Notes: generated from the sequence alone by a model not told the origin. A stretch of 64,000 bases of DNA from an uncultured bacterium (GCA_903854195.1 CAINVO010000029.1:2557-66556), one strand, 5' to 3'; numbered from the stretch's first letter, positions 5,329 through 57,821 are shown. Translations and numbers: made by a program.

Positions 5329-6048
5329 ATGATCATTAAAATATTGCTGGAGGATGCCCAAAAAATGGGACTCTTCGAAACATCGCTTATCATTGGGCTA
5401 ACAGTTGCCTACTTTTCAGCTTTATTCATTCAAGCTGAAGAAGTGCGAAAATACTACAAAACATTTCCGCCTTCCCAAACCATCTACCACGCAGGTCTGG
5501 CAAATTTATTTATTTACTTTTGCTTTTACTGCGATTCAATGAAACACCCCGTACTGGCAGTTGCAAGCTTTCTATGTGCCAGCGGTAACGAAACAATCGC
5601 GTTATGGGCATCAAAGATAGGCCCAACTAAAAAAACAATGACTGTCGTTGTGTCGTTCGGACTAGTACCCATCATTGTCATCATGGTTGCAATGATTAGT
5701 AAAATGACGGTTACAGGCGGTCACACAGAAATCCAGATGCTTCTAGCCACGGCCGTCCTTGTGAGTTTAATTGGACTTGCAATTTCCACAGAGATTTGGG
5801 AAAAGAAAAAAGTTGAAGGTTTTGCAAATACTTGTAAAATCTACAAAAGCCACCAAGCAATATGTATTGCAATACTGTTGTTCATTTGGATTCCGCTGTT
5901 CATTGGCGAGCCTATCGATTTCCTTGGATCAAAAAGTCTGATGATTATTTTTCTGAGTGTTGCCACAGCGGCAATTTCCAGAAGAATGTTGCTAACTGAT
6001 TTAAGTCAGCAAATCAACGAAACACAAAATCCCCCTATCACAACTTGA
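5329..6048 (+). CDS. Polytopic membrane protein, unknown function
   Basis: 239 aa, about 6 hydrophobic helices, strong SD (ACAGGAGGAATAACTTATG). Confidence 0.5.
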   Translation: MIIKILLEDAQKMGLFETSLIIGLTVAYFSALFIQAEEVRKYYKTFPPSQTIYHAGLANLFIYFCFYCDSMKHPVLAVASFLCASGNETIALWASKIGPTKKTMTVVVSFGLVPIIVIMVAMISKMTVTGGHTEIQMLLATAVLVSLIGLAISTEIWEKKKVEGFANTCKIYKSHQAICIAILLFIWIPLFIGEPIDFLGSKSLMIIFLSVATAAISRRMLLTDLSQQINETQNPPITT

Positions 6049-6246: not shown

Positions 6247-6354
6247 CAAGTAAAATTGATTTTTTATTATTGAAATATTAATTTTATTTTATGTTTACTT
6301 TTCCTCAGTAAGAGGGTAAAGTATTCAGGAGCCGGAAAGTTGAAAGATAAATAT

Positions 6355-6438
6355 GCCGAGGTGGCGAAATTGGCAGACGCACTTGCCTTAGGAGCAAGCG
6401 GGGTTAAACCCATGGAGGTTCAAGTCCTCTCCTCGGCA
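6355..6438 (+). tRNA. tRNA-Leu (TAG), type II
   Basis: Acceptor GCCGAGG/CCTCGGC, anticodon loop CTTAGGA, long variable arm, T-loop TTCAAGT. Confidence 0.85.
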
Positions 6439-6443
6439 CAAAA

Positions 6444-6484
6444 AACAAAATACACAACCTTACGGTTGTGTATTTTGTTTTTTG
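6444..6484. terminator. Intrinsic terminator (bidirectional)
   Basis: acaaaatacacaacc-ttac-ggttgtgtattttgt flanked by an A-run and a T-run. Confidence 0.7.
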
Positions 6485-6623
6485 TAATAGCCGAAGAGAG
6501 GACTTGAAAGCCGGACTGAAGTCTCGATGTGAGCGACCTTGCGAACCGAGACGAGGGAGGCGGGGTCTCGTGGAAAATTGCGCAGCAATTTTAACATGTG
6601 ACCAAGTCCACAAAACACATAAC

Positions 6624-6662
6624 AAAAAAACACCACCTCTTTCGAAGTGGTGCTTTTTTATT
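6624..6662. terminator. Intrinsic terminator (bidirectional; serves the minus-strand pilin-like gene 6675..6950)
   Basis: aaaaaaa-CACCACCTCTTTCGAAGTGGTG-cttttttat. Confidence 0.65.
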
Positions 6663-6674
6663 TACTCGCTTTTA

Positions 6675-6950
6675 TTATTTCTTTATTTGATTGATAGCAG
6701 TTGAGTCAGCACCAATTGTGTTTATGATTACGTTCACAATGCCGAATGCAGAAAGCATAATGGCAAGACCTACAATTCCCCACAATATATGTCTACCTCC
6801 CTTTGTGCGTGCCTCCTCACTATCTGAGTGACCCACAAACTCTAATACCCCCCAAAGAAAAACCAGAAGTGCTACAGCAACCAAAAGCAGTATTATCGGA
6901 TTAACAATATACTGGTCAATTTTGTGAATGAAATTTAAAGCCGGAGTCAT
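6675..6950 (-). CDS. Small two-helix membrane protein, VirB2/TrbC-like pilin family (paralog 1)
   Basis: 91 aa; hydrophobic helix - charged loop (GHSDSEEARTKGG) - hydrophobic helix; paralogous to 6969..7343 and 7505..7801. Confidence 0.55.
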   Translation of the reverse strand: MTPALNFIHKIDQYIVNPIILLLVAVALLVFLWGVLEFVGHSDSEEARTKGGRHILWGIVGLAIMLSAFGIVNVIINTIGADSTAINQIKK

Positions 6951-6968
6951 TTATTAGTACTAATTGTA

Positions 6969-7343
6969 TTAGTTTACTTGACCACCTACATTTGGAAGTC
7001 CAGGTGCATTGATAGGTGTGTTATCTAGTCCAGGAATACTTGTCTTCAAAATGTTAACAAGTCCCCATACTGATACCATCACAAACAAAGCAATAATGCC
7101 CCAAAGCATAAAGCTTCTTGCTTCACGTCTTTTTTCTTCATCAGCACCTGACACAACGTACAAAAGAATACCCCAAAGAAAGACCAATACTGTCAATGAG
7201 ATAATGAAAGGTAGAAGCTGGTTGATAAGTGAACTTGCTTGTGTAAGCAAAAGGAAAATACCGTTGACACCTGTAGCTGCAAAAGCTAGGAAAGGTGCCG
7301 CACTGAGTGTCACTGTTGAAATACCTATGAGTGTTTTTTTCAT
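6969..7343 (-). CDS. Small secreted two-helix membrane protein, VirB2/TrbC-like pilin family (paralog 2)
   Basis: 124 aa; predicted signal peptide (..AFAATG), then LLPFIISLTVLVFLWG..SGADEEKRREAR..GLVNIL; about 70% identical to paralog 3 over the core. Confidence 0.6.
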   Translation of the reverse strand: MKKTLIGISTVTLSAAPFLAFAATGVNGIFLLLTQASSLINQLLPFIISLTVLVFLWGILLYVVSGADEEKRREARSFMLWGIIALFVMVSVWGLVNILKTSIPGLDNTPINAPGLPNVGGQVN

Positions 7344-7504
7344 TTAGTTCTATTAAAATAATAATTTTATAAAGCGAGCTTTGATATTGAAAGATATTCA
7401 AACTCCCTTACATTTTAGCAACTTTTGTTTTGAAATACAAAGGTTTTTAAATTTATGTGGGGATAGTAAATGTTTACTAAAAATTTAAATACAGATTATT
7501 AAAG

Positions 7505-7801
7505 CTACTGGAGCTGAGGAATAATAACTGCACCTCCAAAAAGAGTACCTGTGAGAATATTTACCAAACCCCAAACTGATACCATCACGGCAAGCCCGAT
7601 AATACCGTAGATCATGAAATTTCTTCCTTCTATGCGCTTATCCTCACTTCCTGCAGACATAACGAAGTTAAAAATACCCCAAAGAAAAACTAAAATCGTT
7701 AAACTTATAATTAAGGGCAGTAACTGATTTATAAGTGCGGCAATAAGGTGCACAACATCCGTAAAATTTGCAACAGCTGCTGTTTGTGTTGATGGCTTCA
7801 T
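7505..7801 (-). CDS. Small two-helix membrane protein, VirB2/TrbC-like pilin family (paralog 3)
   Basis: 98 aa; LLPLIISLTILVFLWG..SAGSEDKRIEGR..GLVNIL core. Confidence 0.6.
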   Translation of the reverse strand: MKPSTQTAAVANFTDVVHLIAALINQLLPLIISLTILVFLWGIFNFVMSAGSEDKRIEGRNFMIYGIIGLAVMVSVWGLVNILTGTLFGGAVIIPQLQ

Positions 7802-7807
7802 ATTTAT

Positions 7808-8212
7808 TTATTTTAATTGACCAACTGTACCAGTAATTGCAACTTGAATAACACTAGCTCCCAATATAATAGCTGCTCCGACAACAACCCATGTAAGAGT
7901 TTTGTGTGCTGTTTCAATTTTTTTCACATCCCCTCCCGATGTCACGTAAAGAAAACCTGCATAAATAATAAAGAACACTGTCACAAGTGCCCCAAGAACC
8001 TTAACGACACCTAGGAGCACATTTATAAAATCAGCAAGGGTGCTAGCTGTTTTTATTGGGTTATCCAACTTAGCTTGTGCATCAGCGTTTGAAGCAAAAG
8101 CCAATGTAGATAGAGCAACCATAATAAACCCTGCAGGTTGAACTAATTTCTTAAAAATTTGCTTAATTTTATTTTGTATTTTCATTATTTTAATTTTATC
8201 TTTATGAACCAA
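7808..8212 (-). CDS. Small secreted two-helix membrane protein, VirB2/TrbC-like pilin family (paralog 4, subfamily B)
   Basis: 134 aa; signal peptide (..AFASNADA), core YAGFLYVTSGGDVKK..AHK..; start may be the internal Met at 8185. Confidence 0.55.
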   Translation of the reverse strand: MVHKDKIKIMKIQNKIKQIFKKLVQPAGFIMVALSTLAFASNADAQAKLDNPIKTASTLADFINVLLGVVKVLGALVTVFFIIYAGFLYVTSGGDVKKIETAHKTLTWVVVGAAIILGASVIQVAITGTVGQLK

Positions 8213-8597
8213 GTAAACTATAACCAGGATTCACACCAAGCCCTGTCAAAATAAACTGAACAATTAACCACGCTAGTAAAGCAACAATAAGACCGACAAC
8301 AGCCTTAAACATGACACTATGGGCCTTTTTAACCTGCGTTTCACTTCCAGCTGCTGTAAGGTATAGGAAGCCTGCATAAACAAAAAGTAAAACAGCAGCG
8401 GTTATCGCAAGATAAAGTAAAAAACCCACAACAGTGTTGACCAAAATCATGAAATCACTCCAACCACAACCCTGAGCAGCACTAAAACATTGCAACTGCA
8501 ATGTTTTAGTCTGCGCACTAGCCAGTATTGGGAAAAATAAAAAAACAAATACAGAAAAAATTGATTGGATTTTAAATTTAATTATTTTCTGCATCAT
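8202..8597 (-). CDS. Small secreted two-helix membrane protein, VirB2/TrbC-like pilin family (paralog 5, subfamily B)
   Basis: 131 aa; signal peptide (..PILASA), core YAGFLYLTAAGSETQVKKAHS; similar to paralog 4. Confidence 0.55.
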   Translation of the reverse strand: MMQKIIKFKIQSIFSVFVFLFFPILASAQTKTLQLQCFSAAQGCGWSDFMILVNTVVGFLLYLAITAAVLLFVYAGFLYLTAAGSETQVKKAHSVMFKAVVGLIVALLAWLIVQFILTGLGVNPGYSLLGS

Positions 8598-8598
8598 C

Positions 8599-9903
8599 TT
8601 ATTGTGATTGTGTCTGTGTTTTTTTAATAATACTTTGAAAATCTACTCTTGCACCCATAATTGCATCTGAAGAACTTCTCTGGTTTGTTGCTACTGATTC
8701 TACCATATTTTGAAATGAGACATTACTTGTATCTGGATCTGGGTCAAACCATCCTCGACTCTGAAGTGCAGCTTGATAAAATACTGCCTGATAACTATCT
8801 GGTGCTTGTACAGCCAAAAGATCTCTTCTAACTGGTGGTAGGCTCAACTGATCAGACAAAAATGTGACAGAAGCCTGACTTGTCAAAGCAAGAATTGCAC
8901 TCAATGAACCGGCAACGTTTGTTGAGTTTTTTGTAATAGCCATTGCATAAAGTTTTCCGTAAGTTATTTTTGTAGAATTCTGATCAGGAACAGGTAGAAC
9001 AGCAACATCAAAATTTAGATTTGGGTTTTTAGCTCTAATTTGTGACGCCTCGCTTGCGTAGCCAACATACAAAGCTAAATTCCCTGCCAAAAAAGCATCA
9101 AGTGAATTTGGCATTGATCTATTCCATGAATAATATTTATTACTTGGATCTGAAAACTGATTATAAAAATCTAAAACAGACGCAGCTGTTGATGCACCAG
9201 GTAAATTTTGATCCAAAACGCTGACAATTTCATCCGTACTTGGGTTTCTAGTAACGATAGGATTACCAGCTTGAAGGAACATTGCAGAAAGAATTGCTTT
9301 TGCATTTGTAACATTTGAAAACTCACCAAATGACACCAAAGCTCTTTGAATATTCTGTTTGTTATCAACTGCGATGATTTTTGGAGCAAGAGATGACAAA
9401 TCTGACCAGTATTTTGGTGGATTTGGAATATTAGCAGAAGCAAAAATATCTTTGTTCCAATAAAGAACAAGTGGATCCACTAAAATCGGAACGCCGACAA
9501 CCCCAGTTGAATTTAGGAACAATTGTCCTTCATCTATAAAAGTATCTTGAAACGTTCGTTGAGGATAGTTTGCAAAAGGAATAGTGAAGATTTTATTTCT
9601 CAACCTGTTTATTTGTGAATCAGGGATAATAACAACATCTGGTCCATTTCCTTCAGCTAAGGCATTCACAAGATCACTATCAAAAGTGGCTTCTGATTTT
9701 TCAACATACCGTGCATTAATAACATTTGCCTGTTGATTTACATTTTTTATAAGAGCAGAAGCTGATTCATTAGGAATCGTACCCCAAATAGTTACCAAGG
9801 CTCCAGGACCATTACTAGTTGTTCCTAGTTTAGCGAAGGTCAAAACACCAAGCACAATAAGAAATATAAAGATTCCAATCACTGTCATTTTAAAAGGTGT
9901 CAT
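8599..9903 (-). CDS. Extracellular solute-binding protein, family 1 (ABC-type, membrane-anchored; orphan with no permease or ATPase adjacent)
   Basis: 434 aa; N-terminal TM anchor, then type-2 periplasmic-binding-fold pattern typical of sugar-binding SBPs. Confidence 0.6.
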   Translation of the reverse strand: MTPFKMTVIGIFIFLIVLGVLTFAKLGTTSNGPGALVTIWGTIPNESASALIKNVNQQANVINARYVEKSEATFDSDLVNALAEGNGPDVVIIPDSQINRLRNKIFTIPFANYPQRTFQDTFIDEGQLFLNSTGVVGVPILVDPLVLYWNKDIFASANIPNPPKYWSDLSSLAPKIIAVDNKQNIQRALVSFGEFSNVTNAKAILSAMFLQAGNPIVTRNPSTDEIVSVLDQNLPGASTAASVLDFYNQFSDPSNKYYSWNRSMPNSLDAFLAGNLALYVGYASEASQIRAKNPNLNFDVAVLPVPDQNSTKITYGKLYAMAITKNSTNVAGSLSAILALTSQASVTFLSDQLSLPPVRRDLLAVQAPDSYQAVFYQAALQSRGWFDPDPDTSNVSFQNMVESVATNQRSSSDAIMGARVDFQSIIKKTQTQSQ

Positions 9904-9943: not shown

Positions 9944-10483
9944 CTAAGGATGCTTTGGCACTGTGAACAGTAACCCGTAATGGTGATCTCCTGCATCAAA
10001 TTCTTTTTCAAAAAGAAACCCCGCTGATTTTGCAAGAGTAATTGTTTCTGATTTTGAAATCCTCTGATCCTTTTTAGGACCTATATTTACTTCAGACTCA
10101 TGTGACCAATCAATAATGGCTAATCTTCCTTTTGATCTCAATATTCTAAATGCTTCCCCAACAATTGTACTGCGCACCTCACTAAAAAATAATGTATTAA
10201 ATATAAAAACCCTATCAACAGAATGATCAGCAAGACCACTTCCTCTTTCTTGCTCCAAATCAGCGTGTAAAATATCTACATTATCTAGCCCCTGACGCTC
10301 TGCATCTTTTTTTATCTTATGAAGTAAGTCAATTTGAACATCTATAGCATAAACCTTTCCGTATTTACCAACTGCACGAGCTGCAGCAATTGCATGATGG
10401 CCTGAACCTGATCCAAAATCTGCAACAACCATTCCTTCACCGACATATGCCTGGGTAATATTTTTTTCAGGATGAGAAAACAT
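9944..10483 (-). CDS. Class I SAM-dependent methyltransferase
   Basis: 179 aa; motif I VADFGSGSGHH, acidic motif II, Rossmann MTase pattern. Confidence 0.7.
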   Translation of the reverse strand: MFSHPEKNITQAYVGEGMVVADFGSGSGHHAIAAARAVGKYGKVYAIDVQIDLLHKIKKDAERQGLDNVDILHADLEQERGSGLADHSVDRVFIFNTLFFSEVRSTIVGEAFRILRSKGRLAIIDWSHESEVNIGPKKDQRISKSETITLAKSAGFLFEKEFDAGDHHYGLLFTVPKHP

Positions 10484-17010: not shown

Positions 17011-17622
17011 GTGTCAAACCCCCCTTTCCTATATCATTTTCTCCATATGGATGTTGAAACAAAAAAAATAACACCTGAAACTATTAAAAAAACTCCAGAA
17101 CCTTCAAAGTGGGAACTCACAAAATTTGCACTAATCCTTCTTATTATTTTTCTTCCTATTAGATTTTTTGCAATCGGCCCCTTTGTTGTTTACGGAAGTT
17201 CAATGGAACCAAATTTCTATACTGGAGAATATCTTATTGTTGATGAAATCTCATATGATTTCATTGCCCCACATCGTGGTGACGTAATAGTTCTTCGCCC
17301 ACCCATAAATACAAATACTCATTTTATAAAACGCGTTATTGGTCTTCCAAATGAAACTGTAAAAATAGACGGGACAATAGTAACAATCATCAATGCTGCA
17401 AACCCAAATGGTTTTGTATTAAATGAACCTTATCTTGCCCACCACAAAGGCCCTTCAGGTTCTTGGACACTTGGATCAGATGAGTACTTTGTACTTGGTG
17501 ACAATAGAGATGTCAGTGATGATTCTCGTATATGGGGTCCTCTAAAGAAAAATATGATTACAGGAAGAGCACTTCTCAGACTCTATCCATTCAAAAGGTT
17601 AAGCTTTCTGCCTGGTCAATAA
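17011..17622 (+). CDS. lepB: Signal peptidase I
   Basis: SSMEPNF (catalytic Ser box), GDNRDVSDDSR (box E); start may be the Met at 17047. Confidence 0.88.
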   Translation: MSNPPFLYHFLHMDVETKKITPETIKKTPEPSKWELTKFALILLIIFLPIRFFAIGPFVVYGSSMEPNFYTGEYLIVDEISYDFIAPHRGDVIVLRPPINTNTHFIKRVIGLPNETVKIDGTIVTIINAANPNGFVLNEPYLAHHKGPSGSWTLGSDEYFVLGDNRDVSDDSRIWGPLKKNMITGRALLRLYPFKRLSFLPGQ

Positions 17623-23228: not shown

Positions 23229-24077
23229 TTACCCAACAAACTGAGCTGGTATCACCATGCGCGCTCCCATTGAGCTATTCTTAAAAACACATGGGCGATG
23301 CTCAACCCGAAAATCACCATCAAATTCAATACTCTGACCTTTTTCTCGTGTAGATATTTGCCAAGCTGCCTGAAGCCTGTTATTTGATTTTGAACAATCA
23401 TTCGGAAAACAAGTAGTGGACTCTCCCCAATCAAGATGTTTTCTTTCTGAGAAATAAGCTGCTCCAAAAGCCAAAACATACCCACGAAAAGTGAGCCACG
23501 ACTTACTTCTTAACAAAAGTTCATCAATGTTCCTATTTTTGGTATTCGAATCAGAAAAAATCTCATTTTTAATGATGCTCAGCGACGGAAGACCTTGAGC
23601 CTCAAACCCATAAAATTGAGTTAGGTCGCATTTTAAAGCAGGGTTGAGATTTTGGCTTCGGAGTACTTTGTTTATTACATCAAAGTTATCCGTCATGGTA
23701 CCAGGATCGAAAACAACAAACACATTCTCCCAAGGTAATTCCTCAGGGAGAGTGAACATTTTATTTAAATCGACCTTAATACCAAGGATGCTCTCTGTGA
23801 AACGCTCAGCATCTGAAACTGCATTGATGAGATTAGTTTCTGACACTTTAAAACGGTTTAGTGAAAGTGCCACCGATAACTGATCAACTCCGAAATTCCC
23901 TTCAATCAGATCTTGTAGACAGAGTGAGAGCTTTTCCAAATCGAATGGATAGCCATTTATTTGACGAAGTTGCCGTTTTATCTCAAACAGCTTTCCATCA
24001 AGGTTACGATACGTTTCGCCTTCGACATTAGTTGCCATGACGTTATTTTCCTTTATTGTTTGTGTTTTTTCCGACAA
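23229..24077 (-). CDS. Hypothetical cytoplasmic protein, no recognisable family
   Basis: 282 aa, non-repetitive, no TM helix; likely start at the second Met (MATNVEG). Confidence 0.4.
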   Translation of the reverse strand: MSEKTQTIKENNVMATNVEGETYRNLDGKLFEIKRQLRQINGYPFDLEKLSLCLQDLIEGNFGVDQLSVALSLNRFKVSETNLINAVSDAERFTESILGIKVDLNKMFTLPEELPWENVFVVFDPGTMTDNFDVINKVLRSQNLNPALKCDLTQFYGFEAQGLPSLSIIKNEIFSDSNTKNRNIDELLLRSKSWLTFRGYVLAFGAAYFSERKHLDWGESTTCFPNDCSKSNNRLQAAWQISTREKGQSIEFDGDFRVEHRPCVFKNSSMGARMVIPAQFVG

Positions 24078-35577: not shown

Positions 35578-36378
35578 TTATCTTTTAAACATCGACGCTC
35601 TTTGAAACATCTTGAGCGCTTTGATTGGATATTTTTTTGCCATGTGCCAATCAATTGGATCATGTGCATCACCGCTTGGACGAAGCCTCCCTTGGGCATC
35701 AAGACTGATGTCAGGAAACTCCTTTATCAGAGGTTCAGCCAGATACATCGTATCGGGGCCAAGACCTCCGGCGACAGCAATACCAAGATCTGGAAAGTTT
35801 TCTTTGATGGCACGGACGAATGGTATCATCTTGAGACCATTCATACCCAAACCTTTTCCTCCGCTTTTATCCAACAAAACGAAGTCAACAACCTCAGCAT
35901 AATCCTCTAGTCTTTCGACTAGTGCCGCCGGATCATCCCCCACCTGATCAAAGGCATCTCTGCCAACCTGAAGGATGACCTCCAAACGTTTCCTTGATCC
36001 GTGAACTGCGTTTGAGATTTCCGCGGGTTCAGGCCAAATCATATCCAGCTGTAGAGCGTTTACACCCATACCGCCATAGCCTATTGCGCGACAAAGCGTC
36101 TCGGCGAGATTTGGATTATTCTCGTAGTCAGCAAAATGAAGACAATTCATAACCCGAGGAGAATCAGAAGAAAATATTCCAGAAATCTCCTCCTTCTTAG
36201 GAAAAATCGAAGACCACTGTGTCTCCAACCCGTTCAGTGTTTTGTAGCTCATCATCACGCCGACGTGGAGCCTTCGGAACAAACCGAACCTGCGGCTGCT
36301 GTTAAAAACTTCAAGCATTTTCAGTACTTGGTCATACTTCGTAAAATCGGTAATACCGATATATGGAACTTTTGTCAT
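35578..36378 (-). CDS. TIM-barrel protein of the phosphoribosylanthranilate isomerase (TrpF/PRAI) family, GC-elevated
   Basis: N-terminal KVPYIGIT, VDFVLLDKSGGKGLGMNGLKM and IAVAGGLGPDTM match PRAI phosphate-binding motifs; 266 aa; about 50% GC. Confidence 0.5.
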   Translation of the reverse strand: MTKVPYIGITDFTKYDQVLKMLEVFNSSRRFGLFRRLHVGVMMSYKTLNGLETQWSSIFPKKEEISGIFSSDSPRVMNCLHFADYENNPNLAETLCRAIGYGGMGVNALQLDMIWPEPAEISNAVHGSRKRLEVILQVGRDAFDQVGDDPAALVERLEDYAEVVDFVLLDKSGGKGLGMNGLKMIPFVRAIKENFPDLGIAVAGGLGPDTMYLAEPLIKEFPDISLDAQGRLRPSGDAHDPIDWHMAKKYPIKALKMFQRASMFKR

Positions 36379-41653: not shown

Positions 41654-41726
41654 GCGCGGTTAGCTCAGTTGGTAGAGCGCAACATTGACGTTGTTGATGT
41701 CGGGGGTTCGAATCCCTCACCGCGCA
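41654..41726 (+). tRNA. tRNA-Val (GAC)
   Basis: Acceptor GCGCGGT/ACCGCGC, D-arm GCTCAGTTGGTAGAGC, anticodon loop TTGACGT, T-loop TTCGAAT. Hand indexing here disagreed by 1 nt with the ORF track, so coordinates are shifted to match the track. Confidence 0.8.
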
Positions 41727-41755
41727 CAAAAAAAACACATAAAATTTTATTTATT

Positions 41756-43021
41756 ATGAAAATACTAGGAATAGAAACGAGCTGCGACGAAACAGCAATA
41801 TGCATAATTGAAGCGACAGAAAGTAATCAGGAAAACCTTGGAACTCTAGCATCGACATCGGCTCCAACGTCGACATCAACCTCAAACATTTCCATTCTAG
41901 GCAATGCTCTAAATTCTCAAACAAAAATACATGAAAAATATGGTGGAGTATTTCCAATGATGGCTAAACGTGAGCATGTCGCAAACATCATGCCCCTACT
42001 CGAGAATGCACTTAGTGAAGCTGAGCTTTTGCAAAAAAACAATCCAGTTAAAATATCACAAAATGACCTTGAAAAAATAAAAGGAATATTCAAAAAAGAA
42101 ATTGGCTTATGTGAAAATTTTATAAATTTTATTTCAACTTTTAATAAGCCTGAGATAGAGGCTATTGCCGTTACCGAAGGACCAGGACTTGAACCAGCAC
42201 TTTGGGTGGGAATAAACACTGCAATTTGTCTTGGAATCGTTTGGAGTATTCCTGTCATCCCTACCAACCACATGGAGGGTCATATAGTTTCATCTCTACT
42301 TGTTCCAAATATTTCACCAAAAGATGATAAAGAAAAAATAGTAACAGAACAAATCGCAAAAATATCATTTCCAGCAATTTCCCTACTCATTTCTGGTGGG
42401 CACACTGAGCTTGTACTACTGAACGATTGGCACTCCTATGAAATTATTGGTCAAACGAAAGATGACGCTGTTGGCGAAGCCTTTGATAAAGTAGCTCGAA
42501 TGCTTGAACTACCCTATCCAGGAGGACCTCACATTTCCACACTTGCAGCAGAATATAGATCATCAGGAATATATAGCAAAAACCACAAGGAGTCAGGCGA
42601 ACTAGAAAAAATATCTTTTCCACGCCCAATGATTAAATCTCCCGATTTTGATTTTTCTTTTTCTGGACTGAAAACTGCTGTTTTGTATTTTTTGAAAAAA
42701 AACCCTGATGCAAATAAAAACGCTGTCGCTTGTGAGTTTGAAGATGCAGCCACTGAAGTTTTGATTGAAAAAACAAAAAAAGCCTTAGAAAAATATGCTG
42801 CACAAACACTCATCCTTGGAGGTGGGGTGACTGCAAATACTTACATACGAAAAAATTTTGCTGATTTAGCTGAAAATCTTAATATAAAAATTTATTTGCC
42901 AATTCAACAACTCTCCACAGACAACGCCATAATGATAGCCATAGCTGGATACCTAAAATATTCACATGACGGGGTTAGCACTTTAGATATCAAGGCTCGA
43001 GGAAATTTATCATTGCAATAA
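41756..43021 (+). CDS. tsaD: tRNA N6-adenosine threonylcarbamoyltransferase TsaD (Kae1/Gcp family) with low-complexity insertion
   Basis: MKILGIETSCDETA N-terminus, conserved His pair region (HMEGH) and GGV motifs. The ORF-track N-terminal extension runs through tRNA-Val and is rejected. Confidence 0.85.
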   Translation: MKILGIETSCDETAICIIEATESNQENLGTLASTSAPTSTSTSNISILGNALNSQTKIHEKYGGVFPMMAKREHVANIMPLLENALSEAELLQKNNPVKISQNDLEKIKGIFKKEIGLCENFINFISTFNKPEIEAIAVTEGPGLEPALWVGINTAICLGIVWSIPVIPTNHMEGHIVSSLLVPNISPKDDKEKIVTEQIAKISFPAISLLISGGHTELVLLNDWHSYEIIGQTKDDAVGEAFDKVARMLELPYPGGPHISTLAAEYRSSGIYSKNHKESGELEKISFPRPMIKSPDFDFSFSGLKTAVLYFLKKNPDANKNAVACEFEDAATEVLIEKTKKALEKYAAQTLILGGGVTANTYIRKNFADLAENLNIKIYLPIQQLSTDNAIMIAIAGYLKYSHDGVSTLDIKARGNLSLQ

Positions 43022-49276: not shown

Positions 49277-50818
49277 TTATTCTTGGCTTAAAGAGGCCAA
49301 AGTCTTAATTGCACGCATAATATCTTTTTTTATAAGTGGAAAAGTTTTAATTTTTTTAGCTTCTGCAAGAAATACCATAGCTTTCTCTGCTATTTTTTGT
49401 TCATCCTCGTCCAAACTACCTAAATTACTTTTTAAGGACCTCTCCAATGCTGCCGCCTTCTTTTTAATTACAACCTCCTTAGGATTTCCTGAGATCAAAA
49501 CATTCTCTAAAACTTCAATCTTTTCATTTATATCTTCCAATGCCCCTTTCCTTTCATTCGAAGATTCTTCCTCTTCTAAGGCACCTGGAGGTACAACTGA
49601 TTCACCCTCTAGTTCTTGAGGTGGTTGCTGCTCATCTTCTACGTTGCCACCCTCAGATGTTTGAACAGGTGTATGAGTTTGGGTAGGGTCGACATCAACT
49701 GTTGAGCTGGAATTATTGCCCTGATCTACAACATCCTCATCCACCCCGTCTTCAGAAATGGTTTCACCTGAAGAATGATTTGGGGTGTGTTTATTCCTAA
49801 ACCTTTCCCATGATTTTATTTTTGATTCAACCCCATCAAGATATTCATCTCTTCTTTCTTTCTCACGTTTCATTGCGTCAATCTTCATATCCAAAAGTTC
49901 AGCACTATTTATATGATCCTTTAATGCTTCAGAGATTTGATGATAAGCATCCTCACCAATAAGTTCTCGATCTTCAAGCACAGTCTCATACTCAGTGATA
50001 GTATTTTCCAATTCACCCAAACTGTTTATTGCCTCCTCTATTCCCCTTCCAAGTTCAACACTTTGAATAGCCTTATTTTCATAGTCTGCTCTTTTCTTTA
50101 GACTATCAATAGCTACATCAACTTTTCCGTTAAAATCTGACTCCAGTTGAGCCATTTTTTCTTTATATTTTTCAATATCAGCTTTATATAAATCTTGTTT
50201 TCTAGCTCTCTCATCAATAGCTGTATTTAGTCTCTGTATTTTTTCATCGGCTTGAGCTTGCTTTTCATTTTTAGTCCTTTCGTAAAGTTCAACGAGAAAA
50301 GGATCTTTGATTGCTGACAAGCGTTCAGTAAAAATCTGTTGATCTTCATCGTTCTTTTTGGCAACCAACACTGACTGCTCCCTAAGATCACCTATCTCTC
50401 CAGATAATTCTTGAATGTCGCTCTCTTTCAAATCTATAAGATCAGCAGCTCCTCCGCTAGCACGTTTAAATTTCCATTTATCAACTGTTCTGAGTTTTAC
50501 ATAGTCATAAACATTACTAATCCATTCAGGTTTTTTTCTAGAAATTTTATTAATCCTAGAAGCTCTCCAATCTGCATCCTTCTTTTTCTTTTCTGTCTCA
50601 GCTCCTTCCACCTTATCTACTTGGTCCATCCTATCCACTACATCAGCTTTCTCCGCATGTATAGTTTCAGGTGGAGTAGCAGAAGAAGACTCCGCAACCC
50701 CTGGTGCATCTTTTTCAGTCACTGGAATATTTAGTGGTACTTCAGATTCTGGAACGATAGCTTTTGGAAGTTCATTAGTCTTAATGGGAATTGCACCCGG
50801 GTTTGATTCATTTGTCAT
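49277..50818 (-). CDS. Long coiled-coil / disordered acidic protein
   Basis: 513 aa, Glu/Lys-rich heptad regions, no TM helix. Confidence 0.45.
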   Translation of the reverse strand: MTNESNPGAIPIKTNELPKAIVPESEVPLNIPVTEKDAPGVAESSSATPPETIHAEKADVVDRMDQVDKVEGAETEKKKKDADWRASRINKISRKKPEWISNVYDYVKLRTVDKWKFKRASGGAADLIDLKESDIQELSGEIGDLREQSVLVAKKNDEDQQIFTERLSAIKDPFLVELYERTKNEKQAQADEKIQRLNTAIDERARKQDLYKADIEKYKEKMAQLESDFNGKVDVAIDSLKKRADYENKAIQSVELGRGIEEAINSLGELENTITEYETVLEDRELIGEDAYHQISEALKDHINSAELLDMKIDAMKREKERRDEYLDGVESKIKSWERFRNKHTPNHSSGETISEDGVDEDVVDQGNNSSSTVDVDPTQTHTPVQTSEGGNVEDEQQPPQELEGESVVPPGALEEEESSNERKGALEDINEKIEVLENVLISGNPKEVVIKKKAAALERSLKSNLGSLDEDEQKIAEKAMVFLAEAKKIKTFPLIKKDIMRAIKTLASLSQE

Positions 50819-55861: not shown

Positions 55862-56539
55862 CTATCTATTCTTTCTATCCTCAACAACTTTTCCATCACT
55901 TAGACGAATAGTTCTTTCGGTCATTTTTCCATATTCCTCTTCGTGAGTAACCATAATAATAGTCTGTCCTTCTTTATGAAGTTCCTTAAATAAATCTATA
56001 ACTACCCGAGATGACTCCGTATCTAGATTGGCGGTTGGCTCATCTGCAAAAAGTATTTTTGGTTTATGAGCAATCGCTCTTGCAACGCTAACGCGCTGTT
56101 GTTCTCCACCAGAAAGTTGACTAGGTAGATTTCCTGGCCGATGACCAAGGTTTACTCTATCTAAGGCCTTCTTAGCTACACTATATGCATGTTCAGTTGT
56201 TTTCCCTTGCATTATTAAAGGTAGTGCAACATTTTCAAGAGCCGTAAGATCTGGAAGCAATGCATAATCCTGAAAAACATATCCAAGCTTATGGAGGCGA
56301 TATTTTGTACGATCATCACTTGAAAGATCTGTTGCATTGACCCCATCAATAATAATATCTCCGGAGCTAGGATGATCTAGTAAACTGATTTGATAAAGCA
56401 AAGTACTTTTACCTGCACCTGATCGCCCCATAATTGCAACAAACTCTCCATCCTCAATAGAAAAATTTATATCCTTAAGCACAGGTGTTTCAACCTTTCC
56501 GTCGTGATATGTTTTTATTAAGTTTTTTATTTCTATCAT
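55862..56539 (-). CDS. ABC transporter ATP-binding protein (MacB/LolD-type)
   Basis: Walker A GRSGAGKST, ABC signature LSGGEQQR, Walker B ILFADE. Confidence 0.88.
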   Translation of the reverse strand: MIEIKNLIKTYHDGKVETPVLKDINFSIEDGEFVAIMGRSGAGKSTLLYQISLLDHPSSGDIIIDGVNATDLSSDDRTKYRLHKLGYVFQDYALLPDLTALENVALPLIMQGKTTEHAYSVAKKALDRVNLGHRPGNLPSQLSGGEQQRVSVARAIAHKPKILFADEPTANLDTESSRVVIDLFKELHKEGQTIIMVTHEEEYGKMTERTIRLSDGKVVEDRKNR

Positions 56540-56568
56540 TTTTTTTATTTTATTTATCTGCAGATATT

Positions 56569-57819
56569 TTACCTACCTAGAATAGCGTCCAAAGTGTTTC
56601 TCTTTACAATAATTCTGGCTGGAATATATCCGGCGACAACTGTCGTAATCAATAGAATAATCACTCTAATTGATGTCCCGGCAACGGTTACATAAATTAT
56701 GCCATCACTAAATGGAAAATTTATAGGATGTGCATTCACATATGGCACCAAAAAACCATACAAGAACAACACCCCAAGCCCCGTACCCGAAAGTGCATAG
56801 AAAATTGATTGAAAAATATATGAATACTCAATTGCCCGTGAATCAATACCTATACCTTTCAAAATACCGATAAACTTTCTACGAGTAATTGCGTTAACGA
56901 AAATAACAATAAATATAGTAATAGATGCAACAACAAGACCGATAGAACCGAGCATATTTCCTAGAAGTGAAAATGTCTGAGCAATATCCTTAAGAAATTT
57001 AGGTTGTGCCTCTAAATATGTCTGAATTTTTGCACCCTGATCAAAACCATTTTTGACTAAAATATTTTTTACAAACAAAGGATCTACCCCAGGTTTTAGA
57101 ACAACAGAAATTTCATTAAGATTTAAATCATCTCTACCTATAATACTTCGGAGTTGAGAATCTACCATAAAAATACGTTGATCGAGCTCCCCGACCTTAC
57201 TTTTAACTATTCCTTTTATCAACACCTCTCTTGTTGTTGATCCAATATGAAGTCTGACCAACGAGCCTACCCCTGCGGTTTTTAAGTTTTTAAGTCCAGG
57301 TGTATCAATTGGTGTGTACTTATACAAAAGATCAGCACCAAGCAAAATTTTGTCATAATCATCCGGTGCCAAATATGAACCTTCAATCATTAAACCTCCT
57401 ATACCAGAAAAATTATTTTCTTTTACCGGATCAATACCAGCAATGACACCACCAGCACTTTCAGTGACATCACTATCACGTGTTTTTGTTTTATATCCTG
57501 ATTCAACAGTACCTCCTGCAAGATACCTCCCACTTAGAAGACTGACCTGCGGCAAGCCATTTAGTATGTTTAATATTCCACTTGTATTTTCAATATAGGC
57601 CTTTTGATTTAAATTAGAAATAATCAAATCCCCAGTATATTTATTTTTTTCTGCGGTCACCGCTCCTTGCATCAAACCCACCAAAACTCCGTTAATAACA
57701 ACAAGATTTAAGAATGTTAAGGTCATAACAAACATAATCAAAATTGTAGTCCAAAGACTAGCATGCTTTATTTGCCTAATTGCTAGAAAAAATCCTACTC
57801 TTATTGGAACAAATGACAT
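56569..57819 (-). CDS. ABC transporter permease (FtsX/MacB-type, 4 TM helices with large periplasmic loop)
   Basis: 416 aa, FtsX-like C-terminal helices. Confidence 0.75.
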   Translation of the reverse strand: MSFVPIRVGFFLAIRQIKHASLWTTILIMFVMTLTFLNLVVINGVLVGLMQGAVTAEKNKYTGDLIISNLNQKAYIENTSGILNILNGLPQVSLLSGRYLAGGTVESGYKTKTRDSDVTESAGGVIAGIDPVKENNFSGIGGLMIEGSYLAPDDYDKILLGADLLYKYTPIDTPGLKNLKTAGVGSLVRLHIGSTTREVLIKGIVKSKVGELDQRIFMVDSQLRSIIGRDDLNLNEISVVLKPGVDPLFVKNILVKNGFDQGAKIQTYLEAQPKFLKDIAQTFSLLGNMLGSIGLVVASITIFIVIFVNAITRRKFIGILKGIGIDSRAIEYSYIFQSIFYALSGTGLGVLFLYGFLVPYVNAHPINFPFSDGIIYVTVAGTSIRVIILLITTVVAGYIPARIIVKRNTLDAILGR

Positions 57820-57821
57820 TT

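What the first reader, a model, noticed from the sequence alone, without database searches (positions are those of the whole stretch)
6675..9903. Tandem array of five paralogous VirB2/TrbC-like two-helix proteins beside an orphan solute-binding protein, with no secretion machinery in cis
Five consecutive minus-strand genes (91-134 aa) share one architecture: an optional cleavable signal peptide, then hydrophobic helix, short charged loop, hydrophobic helix. They fall into two subfamilies. Genes 6675, 6969 and 7505 share LLPxIISLTxLVFLWG..S(A/G)(G/A)(S/D)E(D/E)KR..GLVNIL; genes 6969 and 7505 are about 70% identical over the core. Genes 7808 and 8202 share YAGFLY(L/V)T..G...KKxxAHK. This fold is typical of conjugative or T4SS pilins (VirB2/TrbC/TraA). 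It is not a type IV pilin, because there is no GFTLIE motif. I see no VirB4, VirB6 or VirD4 gene in the window. The array is bounded by tRNA-Leu(TAG) plus an inverted tRNA 3' fragment on one side and a membrane-anchored family-1 SBP lacking a permease or ATPase on the other. This could be a diversifying pilin/surface-subunit locus of an episymbiont, or a family of membrane-active peptides.
Basis: partly seen in the sequence, partly recalled or inferred. Interest (0 to 1): 0.72.

Follow-up and report, generated by a model that had tools for sequence, protein, structure and literature searches.

The report
Binding protein with five pilin genes
The five small genes do encode relatives of the pilus subunit of type IV secretion machines, as already reported for these ultra-small bacteria, but here they form a fixed, ordered set that is always encoded together with a sugar-binding protein (fused to it in two cases), which points to a filament that senses or grips host sugars.

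Summary
Five tandem minus-strand genes (6675-8597) all score above Pfam's curated cut-off for PF18895 (T4SS_pilin, VirB2-like). The window contains no VirB4 or VirD4 gene. Tandem VirB2-like pilin arrays in Patescibacteria are already published (Wang 2023; Quinonero-Coronel 2025), so the core finding is a known kind.

The interpretation needs correction on two points:
- **The binding protein is not an orphan neighbour.** In 79 of 81 related Paceibacteria loci the orthologous solute-binding protein (SBP) is followed at once, on the same strand, by the array (median gap 1 nt). A SAM-methyltransferase sits just upstream. In two cases the SBP is fused to the first pilin type.
- **The array is not diversifying.** Gene order is fixed:
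  - P1: signal peptide, two invariant Cys.
  - P2: NP motif.
  - A variable middle (P3/P4-like copies).
  - P4.
  - P5: no signal peptide.

A roughly 100-nt gap before P4 carries a promoter-like region with a DnaA-box-like motif.

The best reading is an operon for differentiated subunits of a T4SS-dependent filament. It would carry an oligosaccharide-type binding module and be assembled by machinery encoded elsewhere; six of eight operon-bearing genomes I could check are listed as VirB4-positive.

I file it as a new variant of a known kind, of moderate interest.

The parts
9944..10483 (-). Class I SAM-dependent methyltransferase (179 aa), the conserved gene immediately upstream of the SBP. Its substrate is unknown.
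   Evidence: It hits Pfam Methyltransf_31, Methyltransf_11 and Methyltransf_25, with no specific NCBIfam assignment. It lies directly upstream of the SBP in about 73 of 80 related loci, with a median gap of 10 nt and a -4 overlap in 14 loci.
8599..9903 (-). Family-1 (MalE/oligosaccharide-type) solute-binding protein, 434 aa. It has an N-terminal hydrophobic segment and no lipobox.
   Evidence: - Pfam: SBP_bac_1 at 72.9 bits and SBP_bac_8 at 63.7 bits.
- AF2 model: pLDDT 93.
- Foldseek: best matches are sucrose/maltotriose, mannotriose and maltotetraose binding proteins, E about 1e-21, TM 0.65-0.8.
- Family size: about 1900 representatives at 50% identity with E <= 1e-30.
- Linkage: followed directly by the pilin array in 79/81 loci.
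8202..8597 (-). P1-type pilin (131 aa): signal peptide (ASA|Q), a Cys-x6-Cys loop, then a two-helix hairpin. Its start lies 1 nt after the SBP stop codon.
   Evidence: - PF18895 at 30.4 bits.
- Across 53 orthologues taken from the first array position, both Cys are invariant.
- The first-position protein has at least 2 Cys in 64/64 arrays.
- This is the pilin type found fused to the SBP in P0329 and P0368.
7808..8185 (-). P2-type pilin (125 aa from the ATG at 8185): signal peptide (ADA|Q), an invariant N-P motif, then a two-helix hairpin.
   Evidence: PF18895 at 33.0 bits and PF04956 TrbC/VirB2 at 28.0 bits against a cut-off of 27.9. N42-P43 are invariant in 59 orthologues taken from the second array position. 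The exact 125-aa product is on record.
7505..7801 (-). P3-type (middle) pilin, 98 aa. It has no signal peptide in this genome and is 65% identical to P4 over the core.
   Evidence: PF18895 at 30.3 bits. BLASTP against 6969. The middle positions vary from 1 to 4 copies in relatives and are sometimes tandem-fused.
7344..7504 (-). Internal regulatory gap before P4. In order it contains:
- a DnaA-box-like CTATCCCCA (7466-7458);
- a -10-like TGCTAAAAT (7420-7412);
- a 5'-UTR hairpin GAGUUUG..CAAAGCUC (7405-7376).
   Evidence: - The gap before the penultimate pilin has a median of 102 nt, against 5-15 nt for the other gaps.
- TTATCCACA (up to 1 mismatch) occurs in 29/57 gaps, 4.1/kb against 0.17/kb background.
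- TATAAT occurs at 4.4/kb against 0.47/kb, and the AWDGGTCNYT motif at 2.3/kb against 0.046/kb.
- The hairpin is seen in the closest relatives.
- Function is inferred, not shown.
6969..7343 (-). P4-type pilin (124 aa): signal peptide (AFA|A) and a two-helix hairpin. It is a candidate major subunit.
   Evidence: PF18895 at 38.5 bits. AF2 hairpin model. A profile of its orthologues has as its best PDB sequence match the pKM101 pilin TraM (8cw4), but only weakly (E = 0.031). The penultimate and last positions are the most conserved (0.39 mean pairwise identity).
6675..6950 (-). P5-type pilin (91 aa): no signal peptide, an N-terminal LNP motif, then a two-helix hairpin. It is always the last gene of the array.
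   Evidence: PF18895 at 40.7 bits. The last-position protein has only two hydrophobic segments in 61/64 arrays, with a median length of 91 aa. P18 is invariant in 56 orthologues.
6621..6662 (-). Intrinsic-terminator-like hairpin plus a T-run that closes the operon.
   Evidence: the sequence was read.

Best explanation
The locus is one copy of a conserved Paceibacteria operon: SAM-methyltransferase, solute-binding protein (SBP), then five differentiated VirB2-like (PF18895) pilin paralogues in the fixed order P1-P2-P3-[internal promoter]-P4-P5.

**Proposed mechanism**
1. The pilins are inserted into the membrane as two-helix hairpins. P1, P2 and P4 have Sec-type signal peptides; P3 and P5 do not.
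2. They are then extracted and assembled by the monoderm-type T4SS (VirB4, TrsD, PrgI), which in these genomes is encoded elsewhere. The product is a heteromeric filament or stalk.
3. P4 and P5, which have their own promoter-like region, are the bulk subunits.
4. P1 and P2, which are translationally coupled to the SBP, are low-copy initiator or tip subunits.
5. The oligosaccharide-type SBP is held on the outer (N-terminal) side of P1. It acts as the ligand-recognition module, binding a glycan of the host cell or of the environment.

**Shown**
- Family membership.
- Operon conservation.
- Positional orthology.
- SBP-P1 gene fusions.
- The SBP fold.
- Absence of T4SS genes in cis.

**Inferred**
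- Assembly by a T4SS in trans.
- Filament formation.
- Major and minor subunit roles.
- Ligand class.
- Promoter function.
For: **Family membership**
- All five genes score above the PF18895 cut-off, and P2 also reaches TrbC/VirB2.
- Profile-profile comparison of the P1 class against the P4 class gives probability 99.6%.

**Operon conservation**
- Among the 80 best GTDB species loci plus one further related locus, the SBP is followed directly by the array wherever downstream sequence exists (79/81), with a median gap of 1 nt.
- Among arrays not cut by a contig end, 39 of 69 have 6 genes, 11 have 5 and 12 have 7.
- Independent gene calls with precomputed Pfam hits show the same layout.

**Fixed order**
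- The order P1-P2-(P3/P4)n-P5 holds across arrays, with conserved class features.

**Fusions**
- Natural SBP~P1 fusions exist: P0329 and P0368.
- In L088 the fusion takes the place of the separate P1 gene. The ORF is continuous and the P1 signal peptide is lost.
- The fused domain matches the P1 profile at 75 and 62 bits, against at most 23 bits for the other classes.

**T4SS in trans**
- 6 of 8 operon-bearing genomes are VirB4-positive.
- In Paceibacteria virB4 usually lies near dnaA (PMC12102498).
- The homologous six-pilin array of Southlakia lies in the T4SS cluster and is essential (PMC10633639).

**SBP fold**
- The SBP model has an oligosaccharide-SBP fold.
Against: - No filament made of PF18895 proteins has ever been seen, so the pilin role is a family annotation.
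- The rest of the source genome could not be searched, so a T4SS in this particular organism is not shown. Two of eight related genomes are listed as VirB4-negative; both are draft, scaffold-level assemblies.
- The fold search with the pilin model was non-specific. Class profiles gave no significant PDB match apart from a weak TraM hit.
- The major/minor assignment rests only on the internal promoter-like region and slightly higher conservation.
- Whether the SBP's N-terminal segment is an anchor or a cleaved signal peptide is unresolved.
- The wider gyrA-methyltransferase-SBP neighbourhood is also conserved. Adjacency alone would therefore be weak evidence; the fusions and the 1-nt coupling carry the argument.
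Confidence: 0.55

Rival explanations
1. The operon forms a T4SS-independent membrane complex. The SBP delivers or senses a sugar, and the two-helix pilin-like proteins form its membrane partner (a new kind of channel or sensor). No pilus is made and the T4SS plays no part.
For: - No T4SS gene lies in the window or within 10 kb in 80 relatives.
- No ABC permease or ATPase for the SBP lies nearby.
- The SBP is fused to a membrane hairpin protein in two cases.
- Two related genomes are listed as VirB4-negative.
- The SBP's N-terminal helix has conserved residues F4, F12, G19 and F23.
Against: - Family members in Southlakia sit inside the T4SS cluster and share its essentiality.
- Most operon-bearing genomes that could be checked have VirB4.
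- In Table S3 of PMC12102498, PF18895 genes commonly flank virB4 in other Patescibacteria.
- Five to seven differentiated paralogues in a fixed order resemble pilus or pseudopilus subunit sets more than a transporter.
Confidence: 0.2
2. The array is a diversifying or antigenically variable pilin locus. Under this reading the paralogues are interchangeable variants that adapt the cell to different hosts. The first reader proposed this, and PMC12102498 suggests it for such arrays in general.
For: Paralogues within the array are divergent (24-36% identity to the first). The number of middle copies varies from 1 to 4 between species.
Against: - Each position has its own conserved hallmarks across 64 arrays: two invariant Cys in P1, the NP motif in P2, and no signal peptide in P5.
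- The order is the same in nearly all loci.
- Copy number is stable.
- There is no sign of recombination cassettes or silent copies elsewhere in the window.
Confidence: 0.05
3. The SBP and the methyltransferase are unrelated housekeeping neighbours, kept next to the array only by inherited synteny.
For: The whole block (metallo-beta-lactamase-fold gene, gyrA, methyltransferase, SBP, pilins) is syntenic in most of the 80 loci.
Against: - The SBP-P1 gap has a median of 1 nt, with frequent overlaps.
- The SBP-P1-P2 core persists where P3-P5 are absent (L017, L018, L048, L064, L081).
- The gyrA linkage is broken by insertions while the SBP-pilin linkage is not.
- Two SBP~P1 fusion proteins exist.
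Confidence: 0.05
4. The small proteins are membrane-active peptides: holins, bacteriocins or toxins.
For: They are small two-helix hydrophobic proteins, and some lack signal peptides.
Against: - All five exceed the PF18895 cut-off.
- There are no PHROGs holin hits.
- No immunity, lysis or phage genes lie nearby.
- Base composition is ordinary.
- The genes are conserved in the core genome of hundreds of species.
Confidence: 0.02

Closest known systems
Essential six-gene VirB2-like pilin array of Ca. Southlakia epibionticum ML1 (SEML1_0014-0019; Wang et al. 2023, PMC10633639)
   Same: It is a tandem array of PF18895 proteins of about 100-185 aa in a Patescibacterium, with a similar copy number (6 against 5-7). 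The members are sequence-divergent but share the hairpin architecture.
   Different: - The Southlakia array lies inside the T4SS cluster, next to VirB6-like genes, and has no SBP or methyltransferase beside it.
- The present array is detached from any T4SS gene and is coupled to an SBP.
- Position-by-position orthology between the two arrays was not tested.
VirB2 arrays of Patescibacteria catalogued by Quinonero-Coronel et al. 2025 (PMC12102498): 441 arrays of 2-11 genes in 383 assemblies
   Same: Same protein family and same tandem layout. The paper also records pilin genes that are not near virB4 (near it in 1135 of 1948 assemblies).
   Different: - In the part of Table S3 that I read, PF18895 hits appear only near virB4, and remote genes appear as T_virB2 or PrgF hits.
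- The text has no occurrence of "solute-binding" or "substrate-binding", and the array passages I read describe no fixed paralogue order and no fusion.
- The paper reports arrays as most abundant in Microgenomatia and Saccharimonadia; this one is a Paceibacteria type.
- It reports a maximum identity of 54% within arrays; P3/P4 here are 65% identical over the core.
Conjugative and effector T4SS pilins VirB2/TrbC/TraA, with the tip protein VirB5
   Same: Signal peptide plus a two-helix hairpin. P2 reaches the PF04956 cut-off. The pKM101 pilin TraM is the best, though weak, PDB sequence match of the P4 profile.
   Different: - Canonical systems have one major pilin encoded within the virB operon, plus VirB5. 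Here there are 5-7 differentiated paralogues and no VirB5.
- The host is a monoderm.
- The machinery is not in cis.
- Pilus formation is unproven.
Two-domain tip adhesins such as FimH (lectin domain plus pilin domain), and the minor-pilin sets of type IV pili and type II secretion (from my own knowledge; an analogy only)
   Same: A ligand-binding domain is joined to a pilin module, as in the SBP~P1 fusion. There is also an ordered set of low-copy subunits alongside separately expressed bulk subunits.
   Different: The folds and assembly machines are unrelated (chaperone-usher, or type IV pili with the PilD peptidase). This is a comparison of how the system may work, not a claim of membership.
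SBPs that serve T4SS-related functions without their own permease: PrgZ of pCF10, and ChvE of Agrobacterium, which signals to VirA (from my own knowledge)
   Same: An SBP-fold protein is genetically or functionally tied to a T4SS and acts as a ligand sensor or capture device rather than as part of a dedicated ABC importer.
   Different: - PrgZ is a family-5 peptide binder that uses the Opp permease.
- ChvE is a monosaccharide binder that signals through a kinase.
- Neither is co-translated with pilins or fused to one.

Membership tests
Pfam PF18895 T4SS_pilin | Score at or above the curated gathering cut-off (26.6 bits) | tested here: met
   The five proteins score 40.7, 38.5, 30.3, 33.0 and 30.4 bits.
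Pfam PF18895 T4SS_pilin | Two hydrophobic helices joined by a short polar loop, with or without an N-terminal signal peptide | tested here: met
   Hydropathy segments and the AF2 hairpin model of P4. Signal-peptide cleavage was judged only from AXA-like sites, because SignalP was not available.
Canonical VirB2/TrbC pilin (PF04956) | Profile score at or above the cut-off (27.9 bits) | tested here: inconclusive
   Only P2 reaches it (28.0 bits). In relatives the first or second array protein also carries precomputed TrbC hits. The other four do not.
Canonical VirB2/TrbC pilin (PF04956) | Encoded within or next to the T4SS operon (virB3/virB4/virB6) | tested here: not met
   No such family occurs in any window ORF of 120 aa or more that I took to be a gene, nor among conserved neighbours within 10 kb in 80 related loci.
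Canonical VirB2/TrbC pilin (PF04956) | Sequence or structural match to pilins of solved conjugative pili | tested here: inconclusive
   The P4 profile's best PDB hit is TraM of pKM101 at E = 0.031. The Foldseek search was non-specific, with the A. pernix conjugative pilus at rank 22 and E = 2.5. The P1, P2 and P5 profiles gave no pilin hit.
Canonical VirB2/TrbC pilin (PF04956) | Polymerises into an extracellular pilus | not testable with these tools
   This needs microscopy or biochemistry.
Patescibacteria VirB2-like pilin array (Wang 2023; Quinonero-Coronel 2025) | Two or more PF18895 genes in tandem in a Patescibacteria genome | tested here: met
   Five genes lie in tandem. Relatives are Paceibacteria/Parcubacteria MAGs.
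Patescibacteria VirB2-like pilin array (Wang 2023; Quinonero-Coronel 2025) | A VirB4-type T4SS present in the same genome | not testable with these tools
   Only 64 kb of the source genome is available. Table S1 of PMC12102498 lists 6 of 8 related operon-bearing genomes as VirB4-positive.
ABC-transporter solute-binding protein, family 1 | SBP_bac_1 profile and a two-lobe SBP fold | tested here: met
   72.9 bits. AF2 pLDDT 93. Foldseek E about 1e-21 to oligosaccharide SBPs.
ABC-transporter solute-binding protein, family 1 | Cognate permease and ATPase genes in the same operon | tested here: not met
   None lies in the window; the only ABC set is a MacB-type ABC_tran/FtsX/HlyD group at 55862-59336. 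None appears among the conserved neighbours of 80 loci. The rest of the genome was not searched.
Type IV (PilA-like) pilin | Class III signal peptide with G|F(T/S)LIE and an N_methyl profile | tested here: not met
   There is no N_methyl hit and no such motif in the translations.
Holin or phage membrane protein | Match to a phage protein family, in a lysis or phage context | tested here: not met
   No PHROGs holin hit. The neighbouring genes are housekeeping.

The most novel reading that the evidence does not exclude
The operon may encode a previously undescribed device: a T4SS-built filament that carries an SBP on its P1 subunit. The SBP would capture a host-derived oligosaccharide, and perhaps feed it into the T4SS conduit for uptake in place of an ABC importer. 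This would give the enigmatic, relaxase-less T4SS of Patescibacteria a concrete nutrient-acquisition or host-recognition role. The conserved methyltransferase (a possible pilin modifier) and the DnaA-box-like motif (a possible link to the cell cycle) would be further parts of this system.
Probability: 0.12. Interest if true: 0.85.

Novelty: new variant of a known kind. Interest (0 to 1): 0.58.

Why it matters
What the T4SS and its unusual pilin arrays do in Patescibacteria is an open question. In Southlakia they are essential for epibiotic growth, no relaxase is present, and reviews speculate about uptake from the host (PMC10633639, PMC12857230).

This locus offers three concrete handles on that question:
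- **A conserved partner.** The array in a large Paceibacteria lineage has a soluble, expressible partner of known fold. Its ligand can be screened, and it is covalently fused to one specific pilin type in two cases.
- **A fixed subunit order.** This argues for a built structure with distinct roles rather than antigenic variation.
- **A defined internal regulatory region.**

Together these make "what does the filament bind, and which subunit sits where" directly testable. The family annotation and the existence of arrays are not new.

Tried and rejected
- **Fold search with the AF2 pilin model against the PDB.** Only non-specific helical-hairpin matches, none with E <= 0.001. Rejected as evidence either way.
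- **PDB sequence searches with P1, P2 and P5 class profiles.** No pilin matches. The top hits (PsaF, a phospholipid phosphatase, designed proteins) look like chance.
- **An apparent 506-aa SBP-pilin fusion in L076.** It is an artefact of a masked run of N and was discarded. The real fusions came later from the representative search.
- **Rfam on 6250-7600 at E <= 1.** Only the tRNA, plus sub-threshold miRNA/sRNA matches that fall on hairpins. No known RNA family lies in either intergenic region.
- **NCBIfam.** The Mycoplasma ICE family "Mbov_0395 pilin-like" matched all five, but below its cut-off (24-32 bits against 40). This counts as supporting similarity, not membership.
- **Tracing the source genome.** Look-ups returned only two short duplicate contigs and no accession, so virB4 could not be sought in this organism.
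- **Methyltransferase substrate.** Only generic class I matches were found (arsenite, UbiE and PIMT-like, all far below their cut-offs).
- **Integrated-element reading (a site-specific element next to the tRNA).** The tRNA fragment is an inverted 19-mer that forms part of a hairpin. No integrase is present, composition is ordinary, and the array is core-syntenic in relatives that lack the tRNA. Rejected.

Full report
**1. The observation**

The five minus-strand ORFs exist as described (sequence read):

| Gene | Coordinates | Length |
|---|---|---|
| P5 | 6675-6950 | 91 aa |
| P4 | 6969-7343 | 124 aa |
| P3 | 7505-7801 | 98 aa |
| P2 | 7808-8185 | 125 aa from ATG (the TTG at 8212 would give 134 aa) |
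| P1 | 8202-8597 | 131 aa |

- The 125-aa form of P2 is the one held in the public protein collection.
- A simple hydropathy scan finds a signal-peptide-like segment plus two hydrophobic helices in P1, P2 and P4, and two helices only in P3 and P5.
- AXA-type sites follow the first segment: ASA|Q, ADA|Q and AFA|A.
- P3 and P4 are 65% identical over a 69-aa core. P1 and P2 are 27% identical and share YAGFLY.
- An intrinsic-terminator-like hairpin closes the set at 6662-6621.
- tRNA-Leu(tag) lies at 6355-6439. An 18/19 inverted copy of its 3' end lies at 6490-6508.

**2. Family assignment**

[quoted passage not shown] P2 also just reaches PF04956 TrbC/VirB2 (28.0 against 27.9).
- NCBIfam's Mycoplasma ICE pilin-like family matches all five, but below its cut-off.
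- The P1-class and P4-class profiles are homologous (hhalign probability 99.6%).
- An AF2 model of P4 (pLDDT 79) is a helical hairpin behind an N-terminal helix. A hairpin is too simple for fold search, and Foldseek gave only non-specific matches.
- The best PDB sequence match of the P4 profile is the pKM101 pilin TraM, but only at E = 0.031.
- There are no phage or holin family hits and no type IV pilin signature.

**3. Setting in the window**

- I scanned with Pfam all the ORFs of 120 aa or more that I took to be genes. They are housekeeping genes or genes of unknown function:
  - IF-2, FolD, gyrA, S1, Pth, signal peptidase I, FtsA and FtsZ;
  - a Pif1-type helicase, Nramp, LeuRS, TsaD, LepA and BipA;
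  - a MacB-type ABC/FtsX/HlyD set, two-component proteins, and others.
- None is VirB4, VirD4, TrbL/VirB6 or PrgI. Very divergent small components cannot be excluded among about nine unannotated ORFs.
- GC content is even across the window (0.33-0.40).
- The closest relatives are Paceibacteria ("Parcubacteria") MAGs.

**4. The SBP is part of the unit**

- The 434-aa SBP (8599-9903) ends 1 nt before P1 starts.
- A scan of one genome per GTDB species found 443 relatives, and I examined the best 80 loci (38-47% identity, full length).
- An HMM of the five pilins, run on six-frame ORFs of these loci, found an array on the same strand directly after the SBP in every locus with downstream sequence. 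That is 79 of 81 loci (counting one further related locus); the other two end at the SBP. No pilin hits occur elsewhere in the 10-kb flanks.
- The median gap from the SBP stop to the first pilin start is 1 nt.
- Among arrays not cut by a contig end, 39 have six genes, 12 have seven, 11 have five, and 5 have only two (SBP-P1-P2).
- Independent gene calls with precomputed Pfam hits show the same layout in NCBI and JGI assemblies.
- No ABC permease or T4SS gene is a conserved neighbour.

**5. The array is an ordered set, not a variable one**

Assigning each pilin of each locus to its closest window paralogue gives the pattern P1-P2-(P3/P4 type, one to four copies)-P4-P5 almost everywhere. Each position keeps its own hallmarks across 64 arrays:

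| Position | Median length | Conserved features |
|---|---|---|
| First (P1) | about 141 aa | Signal peptide; two invariant Cys |
| Second (P2) | about 137 aa | Signal peptide; invariant N-P motif |
| Penultimate (P4) | about 120 aa | Signal peptide; mostly no Cys (59/64) |
| Last (P5) | about 91 aa | No signal peptide (61/64); L-N-P near the N-terminus |

- The penultimate and last positions are slightly the most conserved (0.39 mean pairwise identity, against 0.31-0.36 elsewhere).
- Middle genes are sometimes fused in tandem into four-helix proteins. The top database hits of about 225 aa are the same kind.

**6. Fusions**

- A profile of the SBP family, searched against 1.84 billion representative proteins, gave 1900 hits at E <= 1e-30. 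Among the best 150, two proteins are unusually long.
- P0329 (586 aa) and P0368 (579 aa) consist of the SBP, a linker of about 60 aa, and then a pilin domain with the Cys loop.
- Pfam sees SBP_bac_1 plus T4SS_pilin (30.0 bits) in P0368.
- My class profiles assign both pilin domains to the P1 class: 75 and 62 bits, against at most 23 for the other classes.
- In the NCBI assembly GCA_034680565.1 (L088) the fusion occupies the SBP and P1 slots between the methyltransferase and four further pilins. The ORF is uninterrupted, has no N, and has lost the P1 signal peptide.
- The fusion keeps the expected topology, with the SBP outside, joined to the outward-facing N-terminus of the pilin hairpin.
- This is the strongest evidence that the SBP and P1 work together physically.

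**7. Other conserved parts**

- A 179-aa class I SAM-methyltransferase lies directly upstream of the SBP in about 73 of 80 loci (median gap 10 nt, a -4 overlap in 14 loci). gyrA, further upstream, is often separated by insertions. The methyltransferase substrate cannot be named.
- The gap before the penultimate pilin has a median of 102 nt, against 5-15 nt for all other gaps.
- That gap is enriched for three motifs in a fixed order:

| Motif | Occurrence in gaps | Density in gaps | Background density |
|---|---|---|---|
| TTATCCACA-like box, identical to the classical DnaA-box consensus | 29/57 | 4.1/kb | 0.17/kb |
| TATAAT, about 35 nt downstream of the box | 27/57 | 4.4/kb | 0.47/kb |
| AWDGGTCNYT, about 42 nt before the start codon | 16/57 | 2.3/kb | 0.046/kb |

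- In the closest relatives the third motif is the 3' arm of a short hairpin.
- The window carries CTATCCCCA (7466-7458), TGCTAAAAT (7420-7412) and GAGUUUG..CAAAGCUC (7405-7376).
- I read this gap as an internal promoter with a stabilising 5' stem-loop for P4-P5. That is inference from sequence only.

**8. The SBP itself**

- The AF2 model has pLDDT 93.
- Foldseek places it among oligosaccharide-binding MalE-like SBPs (Atu4361 with sucrose/maltotriose, the mannotriose binder CpMnBP1, MalE2), at E about 1e-21 and TM 0.65-0.8 (sequence-level matches).
- Many aromatic and polar residues are invariant in 51 orthologues. This is compatible with a conserved sugar pocket, but I did not map them onto the model.
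- The N-terminal hydrophobic segment has no lipobox. It has unusually conserved residues (F4, F12, G19, F23) and ends in (V/T/A)-F-A, which could be a signal-peptidase site. Anchor versus cleavage is unresolved.

**9. What is already known**

- Wang et al. [quoted passage not shown] Their tables show six PF18895 genes, SEML1_0014-0019, all essential, with no SBP beside them.
- Quinonero-Coronel et al. 2025 (PMC12102498) report the following:
  - VirB2-like pilins in 1948 assemblies, near virB4 in 1135 of them.
  - 441 arrays of 2-11 genes, with 25% average identity within arrays.
  - Antigenic-variation-like versatility as their suggested explanation.
  - virB4 of Paceibacteria lying near dnaA and dnaN.
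- In the part of their Table S3 that I read, PF18895 hits are listed only near virB4, and remote pilin-like genes appear as T_virB2 or PrgF hits.
- Their text has no occurrence of "solute-binding" or "substrate-binding". The reviews and tables I read do not mention an SBP beside an array. A full-text search combining "solute-binding protein" with pilin, type IV secretion and Candidate Phyla Radiation found nothing.
- Their Table S1 lists 6 of the 8 operon-bearing genomes I could match as VirB4-positive.

**10. Most likely mechanism**

*Shown:*
- A conserved operon encodes a methyltransferase, an oligosaccharide-type SBP and five to seven differentiated VirB2-like hairpin proteins in fixed order.
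- The SBP is fused to the P1 type in two cases.
- The operon is remote from any T4SS gene.

*Inferred:*
- The pilins insert into the membrane and are assembled by the T4SS encoded elsewhere into a heteromeric filament or stalk.
- P4 and P5 are bulk subunits.
- P1 and P2 are low-copy subunits that carry the SBP as a ligand-recognition module for a host or environmental glycan.
- Confidence in the whole chain is about 0.55. Confidence in the family and operon statements alone is above 0.9.

**11. Rivals**

- A T4SS-independent SBP-plus-hairpin membrane complex: about 0.2.
- A diversifying locus: about 0.05, contradicted by positional orthology.
- Incidental synteny of the SBP: about 0.05, contradicted by the fusions and the 1-nt coupling.
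- Membrane-active peptides: about 0.02.

**12. Verdict**

The array as such is a further example of a published phenomenon. The conserved coupling to an SBP (including fusions) and to a methyltransferase, the fixed paralogue order and the internal regulatory region are features I did not find described. They turn a vague "pilin array" into a testable model. I therefore file it as a new variant of a known kind, with interest 0.58.

**Main limits**
- The source genome beyond the window is unavailable.
- No multimer modelling or signal-peptide predictor was available.
- All functional steps rest on sequence inference.

Noticed in passing
window 7344-7504 (minus strand); same position in L005-L084: The roughly 100-nt gap before the penultimate pilin carries three elements in a fixed order: a DnaA-box-like TTATCCACA motif (29/57 loci, about 24-fold enriched), a TATAAT, and a conserved AWDGGTCNYT motif or hairpin. 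In Paceibacteria the T4SS genes themselves are reported to lie near dnaA, so a link to DnaA or the cell cycle is conceivable but untested.
   Followed up: partly
window 9944-10483 (minus strand): A generic class I SAM-methyltransferase is almost always the gene directly upstream of the SBP (about 73/80 loci, often overlapping by 4 nt). It may belong to the operon, for example as a pilin or SBP modifier. Its substrate is unknown.
   Followed up: partly
L088 5931-7691 (P0329) and L089 155-1894 (P0368): Natural fusion proteins consist of the SBP, a linker and a P1-type pilin domain. In L088 the fusion takes the place of the separate P1 gene.
   Followed up: yes
L021 12643-13446, L041 11423-12151, L050 12559-13290, L076 12281-13216; database proteins P0001, P0002, P0004 and others (about 225 aa): Tandem fusions of two middle-type pilin domains form one four-helix protein, at the array position just before the internal gap. 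This suggests that these two subunits are neighbours in the assembled structure.
   Followed up: partly
L017, L018, L048, L064, L081 (and L045): A minority of genomes keep only SBP-P1-P2 at this site (L045 keeps the SBP plus two P2-like genes). The P3-P5 genes are absent locally; whether they lie elsewhere in those genomes is unknown.
   Followed up: no
L062 11268-13874: In one genome the operon is interrupted by small inserted genes that look like toxin-antitoxin pairs (an HTH protein; nucleotidyltransferase and HEPN-like proteins). I judged this from their N-terminal sequences only. The pilin genes around them are retained.
   Followed up: no
window 6419-6625: The 3' end of tRNA-Leu(tag) and an inverted copy of it form a 39-nt imperfect inverted repeat (6419-6453 / 6470-6508). 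It is followed by a relatively GC-rich segment (47% against 37%) whose plus strand folds somewhat better than shuffles (z = -2.7). No Rfam family matches. The same 156 nt occur in two short metagenome contigs (L001, L002) but not in the related loci.
   Followed up: partly
window 5329-6048 (+), 49277-50818 (-), 62718-63941 (-), 23229-24077 (-), 35578-36378 (-): Several sizeable ORFs have no Pfam family. One is a 239-aa ORF rich in hydrophobic stretches just beyond the tRNAs, and another is a 513-aa protein. Divergent envelope or T4SS-accessory proteins could hide among them.
   Followed up: no
window 17011-17622 (+): A type I signal peptidase (Peptidase_S26), the enzyme expected to process the pilin precursors, lies about 7 kb from the array. 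It is syntenic in 33 of the related loci. This may be coincidental.
   Followed up: no
window 41654-41727 / 41669-43021: The mechanically listed TTG start of the TsaD-like ORF (41669) lies inside the tRNA-Val gene. The real start is probably further downstream.
   Followed up: no
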